Part shown: positions 5,661-8,600 of the stretch, one piece after another
Numbering within the stretch: position 1 is the first letter of the stretch
How the letters are laid out: each line of letters starts with the position of its first letter
Assembly: GCF_964355755.1 (NCBI RefSeq)
Contig: NC_092676.1
Location: forward strand, 2,113,788-2,177,787
Direction of reading: 5' to 3'
Source of the DNA: Antedon mediterranea
Taxonomy: Eukaryota; Animalia; Echinodermata
Length of the DNA: 64,000 bases
Made by a program: the position numbers and the translations under genes
The notes under the pieces: generated by a model
What the model saw: only the letters and a program-made list of their open reading frames with translations
Told to the model about the DNA's origin: nothing
Databases searched by the model: none

Positions 5661-8600
5661 CTTATACTTCATCTTTGGACAGGAATGTATATAGAATCCC
5701 ATATAATAGTACTTTAAATTTGCAGCTTCCTTTTGCAGTGCTCGGGTAAATGCTATTTCTCTGGAAAAAAACAAGAGTAAAAATAGCTGAAAAGAGGTTT
5801 TTTCCAATATGTATGGAAAAAAAAATGAAGAGAGCGAAGAAAGAAAAAGAAAAACGTGATGGCTATAGCTTGATCAGCGCCCTCTAGTAAATAAAAGTAA
5901 AGAATGGCACACCTAGGATATTCAACGATACCAACTTAGCCAAATGCTAGAAGACAGAATTGGGTTCTAAATTAATCATTTAAAATAAATGTATAGCAAC
6001 TGCTTAAAGGCCAATTTACACAGACAAGCGGTAACAGTAATAAAAATATAGAATCTATGTTATTCCTTATGAACATTTACACACAACATGGAGTGGACAG
6101 GCAGTTTCCACCCAGGATAGATACAGATTACGTAGAACAAGCTATGCGGTTTTCCGCTTACTCGTCATTGTAGCATAACTATTGCTTAATAAGGCCCTGA
6201 AAAGGTGTATTAATTGCTTAATAGTGAATAAGTATGGGAGTTCTTTTTTACTGCTTAAGCTCTGTCTACACTGTTACTGAGTGAGTGGCCGGCTTAAGCT
6301 GTCTACACTGTTACTGAGTGAGTGGCTGAGCGGTTAAGACAGTGGAATCGTAATTACGTAGCCATAACATCGGCAAGGGTTCGAGGCTCACTCGCTCCAT
6401 GGTTCTGGTGGTAGAATGAGTCTTCTCGGATAAGGACTATAAACCATAGGTCCAGTGTACACATCTAGCTCGTGTGCACTTTAAAGAACCTAGTACATCT
6501 TTCAAAACGAGTAGAGGGTTACCCCGGTGTATTAGTTCATCACAGCCACTGATCATAACTGGGCCCTCTGGGAGACCAGTCTTTGACTGAAGAGGTCGCC
6601 TAGTATAAATATATATTTCAAAAAAAAGTTTAATACTTATTACTTGAAGTGCTCTTACCTCAATGAGCTATACGTTCCAAGGTTAAGAAAGTTGTAATCT
6701 GGGTTGTAATATAAATACACTGATGATATAGAGTGAGGAAGAATGTCTAAAACACCGACCGCAATGAGGACACCACCCAACCAGTATTGCTGATGAAATG
6801 ATCCATAACCACAGCTTGGACCATCCTCCCTGTACTCCTCTACCAATGGTGACTCGCATAAGAATCTCTTAAACTAAAAAATTAAGAAGAAATATAAAGG
6901 AAATTTTAATAATTACTGTATAAATTCTCTTTCTCTTCCTCTACTAAATTTCAATCTTTACTCAATATTTTAAATTAAGTCTGACAAAAGTAGGATCTAA
7001 TTTCAACGCTGATAACTAGTGTTTATGAACACAGTAAATATTCAACTTGCATTGTCAGTGGAGGTAGCCCATGGCGCTTTCTCTGATAAAGGCCATGTTT
7101 CTGCAGCCAAAATAAAATTATCCAGTTAATTTTTTAACCAATAAAGTGCGCATGATCAGTCATTACCAAAACAACCAGATGCCTAATCACATCACAATTT
7201 TTCCAGAGGTAAAAGGTTAAAAATTATTGCATTCACTCAATAATTATCGGTTAATTTTTCTCGTTTGGAATCGGTTAAACCATGTTTCCACCGGTAGTTT
7301 ATTGGTTAATTTTCGGTTAATTTTTGGCTGGGGAAACACGCCGTAGATTTACTGGGTTATTATATTAATGAACTTACATCATGTGCAGTACAGTCCGATG
7401 CTGGTTCTTTATGAATTGTCATTTGATATTTGCGAAATAATTCATACGATTCCTTGAACGATTCTTGATATTCTAAACTAGGGGGTGCTGTCCTGATCAA
7501 TTTAATCTAAAATTAATTAAAATAGAAAACAAGTGAGCTTGAAGAAAAGAATTTGTAATGGTCTGTTCACACTAGAATTTGTAATGGTTTGTTCACACTA
7601 GAAATTGTAATGGTTTGTTCACATTGTAATTTGTAATGGTTTGTTCACACTAGAATTTGTAATGGTTTGTTCACACTAGAATTTGTAATGGTTTGTTCAC
7701 ACTATAATTTGTAATGGTTTGTTCACACGAGTATTTGTAATGGTTTGTTCACACTAGAATTTGTAATAGTTTGTTCACACTATAATTTGTAATGGTTTGT
7801 TCACACGAGAATTTGTAATGGTTTGTTCACACTAGAATTTGTAATGGTTTGTTCACACGAGAATTTGTAATGGTTTAACACTAGAATTTATGCCAGCAAA
7901 AGTGAAGAAAATTGTGATCAGGTACATTTTCGTTTTTTCAAGCCCATTTTTTTTGTTTAATATCCGCACCTGTCCCGTTGTACACTTATGGGGTGGGTCT
8001 TTGTGTATTGTTTCTTGGTATCGTTTATATAATTTATATGAATCATCAAAGGTTTCTTCAAACTCGGAGCTTGGAGGATTTGAGCGAACAAGTCTTAACT
8101 GAAACAAACAAACATGTTTTAGCAGATACTCAGGAGACATTATTAAGGTCATACTTAAGTAGCCATTGGGGCCAGTAGATTCATTCTTACTGGCCCAAAT
8201 TCAAGTTGAATGGCCAACAATAGTTTTAAAATAAATCAGTTTAATATTGTATGTGAAAACATGTTTTAGCAGATACTCGTACTATAGTGGCCATTGGGGC
8301 CAGTAGATTCATTCTTATTGGCCCAAATTCAAGTTGAATGGCCAACAATAGTTTTAAAACGAATCAGTTTGATATTGTATGTAAAAACATGCCTTGACAA
8401 GAGAAATATATGAATATTAATGCAATTGGTTATGTGTTTAATTCCACCACAAATTATTCGATTGATTACTACTGCTTTCTAGAAATAATGAATTCTGGAA
8501 AATCTATTTTTTTGATCTATGGATTTGCATTTTTGATTTTCAGTCATATGAATAATAATATGCATGATTGATTTTCAGCCCTCTACAAATATCATATCTA

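What the first reader, a model, noticed from the sequence alone, without database searches (positions are those of the whole stretch)
7378..8098. Tandem 129-bp paralogous ATE1 exons: an invertebrate counterpart of the mutually exclusive 7A/7B switch
Seen: two phase 0-0 exons of exactly 129 bp that align without gaps ([35 protein letters not shown] vs [35 protein letters not shown]), both open and with good splice sites. Known: mammalian Ate1 has mutually exclusive 129-bp exons 7A/7B at this position, governed by competing RNA structures. Inference: the isoform switch in the Arg/N-degron pathway either predates vertebrates or arose convergently. Exon B is absent from the ORF track and is likely to be missed by annotation.
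Basis: partly seen in the sequence, partly recalled or inferred. Interest (0 to 1): 0.8.

Follow-up and report, generated by a model that had tools for sequence, protein, structure and literature searches.

The report
Feather star ATE1 twin exons
The feather-star gene for the protein-tagging enzyme ATE1 has two side-by-side copies of one exon that are likely used one at a time; both forms are already annotated and an invertebrate version is already in print, but corals carry the pair too, so the switch is likely older than published.

Summary
Observation confirmed: two 129-nt, phase 0-0, AG/GT-flanked ATE1 exons (8098-7970, 7506-7378, minus strand), 20/43 aa identical. The gene matches Antedon mediterranea RefSeq isoforms X1 (exon A only) and X2 (exon B only), so exon B is not missed by annotation. 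One contig carries exon B spliced on both sides; junction counts were not obtained. The main inference is in print: Martinez Gomez 2021 dates the ATE1 event to Bilateria, against Kalinina 2021. Added here: six coral genera have the same 43-aa pair (the scan noted corals before, on an octopus window); a vertebrate-only duplication is rejected (AU p=0.005); protostomes duplicated a longer 162-165-nt exon; and exon position 38, human dimer-interface residue E309, is K/R in the first and D/E in the second copy in 77 of 82 two-copy proteins. Exon A groups with vertebrate 7a. Exon B is no closer to 7b than to 7a, so its orthology is open. The human R1/R3/R4 RNA switch is not reproduced; only a weak predicted stem covers B's likely branch point. 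Verdict: real, known kind, modest interest.

The parts
7970..8098 (-). ATE1 exon A (first copy, 7a-like), 129 nt, phase 0-0, weak donor GTGCGG
   Evidence: groups with vertebrate first copies 96/85
7378..7506 (-). ATE1 exon B (second copy), 129 nt, phase 0-0, donor GTAAGT
   Evidence: contig of 30+129+30 nt in run X1
7507..7969 (-). 463-nt intron between A and B; too long for steric exclusion
   Evidence: coordinates; inference
7548..7876 (.). 26-nt tandem repeat, 12.7 copies, filling most of the A-B intron
8866..9074 (-). shared upstream exon; ends in phase 0
   Evidence: X1 contig ends at 8866
6659..6873 (-). shared downstream exon, 215 nt; begins with the 11-aa block that protostomes duplicated along with the exon
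   Evidence: X1 contig begins at 6873
7985..7987 (-). codon 38 of exon A (Lys)
7393..7395 (-). codon 38 of exon B (Asp); aligns with human E309
7534..7551 (-). likely branch-point region of exon B; predicted stem arm
   Evidence: prediction only
7929..7946 (-). intronic arm just after A's donor, predicted to pair with B's branch-point region
   Evidence: prediction only
8053..8065 (-). second predicted partner of B's branch-point region, inside exon A
   Evidence: prediction only
14423..14525 (-). first coding exon of ATE1; the last coding exons were not found in the window

Best explanation
These are two tandem copies of one ATE1 exon in a crinoid, likely spliced one at a time to give two 473-aa arginyltransferases that differ in 23 residues, and likely inherited from one duplication older than the coral-bilaterian split. 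Shown: both exons are intact, each is annotated alone in a full-length isoform, and B is spliced on both sides in one run. Inferred: A descends from the 7a line and B from the 7b line; the swap changes a surface patch (K versus D at the site of human E309) and so likely tunes self-association or partner binding rather than catalysis. Exclusion cannot come from frameshift decay (129 nt keeps frame) or from a short intron (463 nt); the likeliest cause is a predicted stem that hides B's branch point, in competition with A's weak donor. That last step is weak (about 30%).
For: RefSeq X1 and X2 are both 473 aa and swap only this block. Run X1 (RNA by guess) gives a 189-nt contig with exon B exactly at letters 31-159, and contigs that end at 8866 and begin at 6873, the shape of an alternative-exon bubble; exon A is covered at a similar level (about 29-41 against 32). 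Codon positions 2 versus 3 are 33 versus 15 of 43 identical and synonymous sites are saturated, so both copies are under constraint. Pairs occur in 43 taxa across echinoderms, hemichordates, vertebrates, molluscs, a brachiopod, arthropods and corals. Antedon A joins vertebrate first copies (96/85) and coral second copies join vertebrate 7b (98/93). First-with-first plus second-with-second outscores the crossed pairing in 34 of 35 coral-vertebrate and 21 of 21 echinoderm-vertebrate comparisons, which are not independent. One split of all first from all second copies is not rejected (p-AU 0.42); a vertebrate-only duplication is (0.0053). Three trees of separate duplications are rejected under LG+C20 (0.022-0.025), one of three under LG+G4. 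Position 38 is K/R then D/E in 30 of 30 ordered species and 77 of 82 two-copy proteins, never reversed.
Against: Only 43 columns. No bootstrap tree held all first copies on one side (0 of 200). Antedon B is no closer to 7b (10-16/43) than to 7a (15-18/43). The best-scoring fixed tree has echinoderms and protostomes re-duplicating the first copy, and a crinoid-only clade is not rejected (0.29). Protostome copies are 162-165 nt with a different 3' boundary. The junction partners of the B contig were not displayed, so A>B joining is not excluded; double-inclusion models exist in Anneissia, Asterias, corals and vertebrates. The human partner residues K476-R477 vary in invertebrates. No mammal was among the 30 ordered species, and one mammal-like protein (P0207) has E in both copies. 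The acceptor of A has no predicted pairing partner above shuffles.
Confidence: 0.55

Rival explanations
1. The two-exon switch is ancient, but Antedon exon B is a younger re-duplicate, or a partly gene-converted copy, of exon A that replaced the original 7b-line exon in echinoderms (and separately in protostomes).
For: Best-scoring fixed tree under both models (p-AU 0.71 and 0.72; framed after the free tree was seen). B resembles 7a as much as 7b. Protostome exon boundaries differ. Free trees place echinoderm and mollusc second copies apart from coral and vertebrate second copies.
Against: It needs the K-to-D/E change and the downstream position to recur. Its lead over the single-origin tree is only 1.4 and 5.6 log-likelihood units and not significant.
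Confidence: 0.25
2. Corals, deuterostomes and protostomes (or smaller groups) duplicated the exon independently and converged on the same charge swap.
For: Duplicated unit is 43 aa in corals and deuterostomes but 52-54 aa in protostomes. Martinez Gomez 2022 lists fly Ate1 as 'same region, convergent'. Under LG+G4 two of three such trees survive (0.084, 0.13). A coral-only duplication plus one bilaterian duplication is not rejected (0.39, 0.069).
Against: All three fully separate trees are rejected under LG+C20. Coral second copies join vertebrate 7b at 98/93. The charge order is never reversed in 82 proteins.
Confidence: 0.12
3. The exons are not strictly exclusive: both are often included, or B is a minor cassette.
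For: 129 nt keeps frame, so double inclusion escapes decay; many species have double-inclusion models; the B contig's neighbours were not displayed.
Against: The three Antedon cluster members each hold one copy. B's depth (32) is close to A's and below the downstream exon's (54), though contig depth is a poor measure.
Confidence: 0.08

Closest known systems
Mammalian ATE1 mutually exclusive exons 7a/7b (Kalinina et al. 2021, PMC7797038)
   Same: Two homologous 129-nt exons in tandem at the same place in ATE1; both Antedon exons match the human 7b peptide in PDB 8tzv; Antedon A groups with vertebrate first copies.
   Different: No partner found for A's acceptor, so the R1/R3/R4 competition is not reproduced; B is not clearly closer to 7b; that paper states that a 7b homolog is absent in invertebrates, which these data contradict at the level of a second copy.
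ATE1 tandem-exon event dated to Bilateria (Martinez Gomez et al. 2021, PMC8373072; 2022, PMC9741552)
   Same: Same event; octopus named as example; supplement gives last common ancestor Bilateria.
   Different: Corals were not mentioned in the passages read; the 2022 supplement calls the fly event convergent; the 129 versus 162-165 nt boundary difference and the charge swap were not in the passages read.
RefSeq Antedon mediterranea ATE1 isoforms X1, X2, X3
   Same: Match this window's exons at 99-100% and carry A or B singly.
   Different: Nothing; the finding re-discovers these models.

Membership tests
ATE1 exon 7a/7b mutually exclusive cluster | Two tandem homologous 129-nt exons at this position of ATE1 | tested here: met
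ATE1 exon 7a/7b mutually exclusive cluster | Each exon used alone in a full-length isoform | tested here: met
   RefSeq X1 and X2, predicted models; B spliced on both sides in X1
ATE1 exon 7a/7b mutually exclusive cluster | Double inclusion suppressed | tested here: inconclusive
   0 of 3 Antedon cluster members hold both; junctions not displayed
ATE1 exon 7a/7b mutually exclusive cluster | First copy orthologous to 7a | tested here: met
   25-29/43 to vertebrate first copies against 14-17/43 to second copies; 96/85 in the 88-row tree, not starred in the 36-row tree
ATE1 exon 7a/7b mutually exclusive cluster | Second copy orthologous to 7b | tested here: inconclusive
   10-16/43 to 7b against 15-18/43 to 7a; shares D/E38-C39 and F24; AU tests do not decide
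Human ATE1 competing RNA structure | One intronic element (R3) pairs with either acceptor region (R1 or R4) | tested here: not met
   B's acceptor region has predicted partners; A's has none better than shuffles in five regions
Human ATE1 competing RNA structure | Long-range R2-R5 pairing | not tested
   no crinoid genomic relatives were available for covariation

The most novel reading that the evidence does not exclude
The ATE1 exon switch arose once before corals and bilaterians split and has since kept a charge reversal (K/R in the first copy, D/E in the second) at the residue that in human ATE1-2 is the dimer-interface E309, so alternative splicing would set the enzyme's self-association or partner binding across most animals.
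Probability: 0.35. Interest if true: 0.6.

Novelty: already known. Interest (0 to 1): 0.3.

Why it matters
The feature itself is annotated and its invertebrate occurrence is published, so it matters little as a discovery. The comparison does bear on a disagreement in print (vertebrate-only, Bilaterian, or convergent origin), likely moves the date back to the coral-bilaterian ancestor, and names one residue (exon position 38, human E309) whose swap could explain why the two isoforms differ. That is testable in human or crinoid enzyme by a single substitution.

Tried and rejected
No whole genome was held. No RNA holder was listed as such; X1 is RNA by guess, and its junction table was filled by repeats, so no junction counts. 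Homodimer prediction for the exon-B isoform gave no answer (score 0.00, no verdict); the A isoform was not folded. dS between A and B is saturated, so no dN/dS ratio. RNA pairing: 15 target-region tests; two stood out against 40 shuffles (0/40, 1/40), but real 590-nt blocks of this window hold one such site in 36 of 108 and two in 6 of 108 cases, so it stays a lead. Steric exclusion and frameshift decay rejected for this locus (463-nt intron, 129 nt). Exon B as pseudo-exon rejected (open frame, codon-position pattern, RefSeq model, spliced contig). No placozoan, sponge, ctenophore, tunicate, nematode, Drosophila or named mammal ATE1 was in the hit lists seen (top 120 of 2916 and of 3567), so trees are unrooted. 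Paper searches for ATE1 with Nematostella (0 papers), cnidaria (2; one checked, not relevant to corals; the other seen as listing only), coral (3 listings, not read) and dimer plus exon 7 since 2024 (1 paper) showed no report of the coral pair or the charge swap; the library lacks most subscription papers. ARAGORN found no tRNA.

Full report
Observation. On the minus strand, exon A (8098-7970) and exon B (7506-7378) are each 129 nt, open, phase 0-0 and flanked by AG and GT. They share 20 of 43 residues and 72 of 129 bases without gaps; identity by codon position is 24, 33 and 15 of 43. Among 20 open AG-129-GT segments on this strand the next best match to A is 8/43, and there is no third copy. 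Both match the exon 7b peptide of human ATE1-2 in PDB 8tzv. The intron between them is 463 nt, mostly a 26-nt tandem repeat.

Identity and annotation. A search with the two exons returned Antedon mediterranea ATE1 isoform X2. Its cluster has three members: X1 and X2 (473 aa each) and X3 (436 aa). X1 and X3 contain A alone and X2 contains B alone, and the shared exons match the window at 99-100%. The claim that exon B would be missed by annotation is therefore wrong. The last coding exons were not found in the window.

Splicing evidence. Four runs were laid on 5000-9400. Three behave as DNA and cross the exon-intron borders. X1, RNA by guess, gives a 189-nt contig in which exon B occupies letters 31-159 with 30 non-intronic letters each side, a contig ending at 8866 and one beginning at 6873. 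This is the shape expected of an alternative-exon bubble. Exon A's own contigs were not listed; bin arithmetic puts its depth at about 29-41 against 32 for B, and one contig (depth 12) runs from A's end into the intron, in line with its weak donor. The neighbours of the B contig were not displayed, so exclusivity is likely but not shown.

Distribution. I collected pairs from 43 taxa: 30 with known order (29 double-inclusion models plus this genome) and 13 isoform pairs of unknown order, two of which combine congeneric species. They cover crinoids, sea stars, urchins, hemichordates, vertebrates, molluscs, a brachiopod, arthropods, five stony-coral genera and one octocoral. The amphioxus clusters examined and the three Nematostella members showed one form only, which may be loss or missed annotation. 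The repeat spacing in 82 distinct two-copy proteins is 43 aa in 49, 54 in 15 and 52 in 6. Genomic loci confirm the split: 129 nt in one locus, 162-165 nt in 11 of 12. Protostome-type copies thus include the next 11 residues, which Antedon keeps in the shared downstream exon.

History. In an 88-row tree of 43 columns Antedon A joins vertebrate first copies (96/85) and coral second copies join vertebrate 7b (98/93); most deep forks are open. On 36 of these rows, a vertebrate-only clade is rejected (p-AU 0.0053), one split of first from second copies is not (0.42), and a crinoid-only clade is not (0.29). Among eight fixed trees, the three with separate duplications score 0.084, 0.044, 0.13 under LG+G4 and 0.022-0.025 under LG+C20; single origin scores 0.55 and 0.36; an ancient pair with re-duplication in echinoderms and protostomes, framed after seeing the free tree, scores best at 0.71 and 0.72. 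Antedon B is 10-16/43 identical to 7b and 15-18/43 to 7a. The pair is thus older than vertebrates and likely older than bilaterians, but B's own descent is open. Vertebrate 7b was assigned by match to the ATE1-2 structure; human 7a was not fetched.

What the swap may do. Exon position 38 is K/R in 30 of 30 first copies and D/E in 30 of 30 second copies; in all 82 two-copy proteins the pattern holds in 77 and is never reversed, and it holds in 6 of 10 two-copy genomic loci. It aligns with human E309 (one-residue numbering offset). Lan et al. 2024 (PMC11283454; passages and the dimer section read) place D308-E309 at the homodimer interface opposite K476-R477 and leave open whether 7a disrupts the dimer. 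Against a universal role, K476-R477 vary in invertebrates, that paper says the interface is not conserved in fly, and a mammal-like protein has E in both copies. This is one character shared by kin, not 82 independent events.

How exclusion may work. Frameshift decay and steric hindrance do not apply here. B's likely branch-point region (motif recognised from recall) is predicted to pair with the intron just after A's donor (about -18 kcal/mol; pairing probability 0.9-1.0 over the core in a local fold) or with exon A itself. A's acceptor has no such partner, so the human R1/R3/R4 design is not met. Real blocks of the window hold one such site in 36 of 108 cases and two in 6 of 108. This is a lead only.

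Literature. Kalinina 2021 (PMC7797038, passages) describes the human RNA switch and says a 7b homolog is absent in invertebrates. Martinez Gomez 2021 (PMC8373072, passages and supplement rows) dates the event to Bilateria, naming octopus. Martinez Gomez 2022 (PMC9741552, passages and supplement rows) lists ATE1 events in human, fly and nematode and calls the fly one convergent. PMC8140736 (two passages) mentions conservation in spiders. Searches showed no report of the coral pair or the charge swap.

Verdict. Real, annotated and of a published kind. Interest 0.3. The remaining value lies in the likely pre-bilaterian age, the two exon sizes and the position-38 hypothesis.

Noticed in passing
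L003-L011, between the two ATE1 exon copies: In nine unnamed animal loci the intron between the copies is only 43-51 nt, which suggests steric exclusion; L012 has 714 nt and Antedon 463 nt, so the same exon pair may be kept exclusive by different means in different animals.
   Followed up: partly
L001, L003-L012 versus L002 and window 7378-8098: Two exon sizes: 162-165 nt (with the following 11 residues) against 129 nt.
   Followed up: partly
proteins P0029, P0049, P0114 (amphioxus) and P0360 (Nematostella): Only one form annotated: K at position 38 in amphioxus, E in Nematostella; possible reciprocal loss or missed exons.
   Followed up: no
window 14525 (-) and about 14900-20300 (+): ATE1 lies head to head with ORF pieces that look like a small Tim chaperone (TIM8-like) and then PEX5-like exons; names from recall of the translations, not tested.
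   Followed up: no
window 5151-5462 (-): ORF piece resembling the end of a LINE reverse transcriptase inside an ATE1 intron (recall).
   Followed up: no
window 6320-6600 and 8710-8831: High-copy interspersed repeats in ATE1 introns (very high depth); 8716-8831 has terminal inverted repeats, MITE-like.
   Followed up: no
window 8149-8391: A 128-nt tandem duplication just upstream of exon A repeats sequence near its acceptor region.
   Followed up: no
window 11167-11379 and 14145-14342: Two inverted arrays of a 16-nt repeat within the first ATE1 intron.
   Followed up: no
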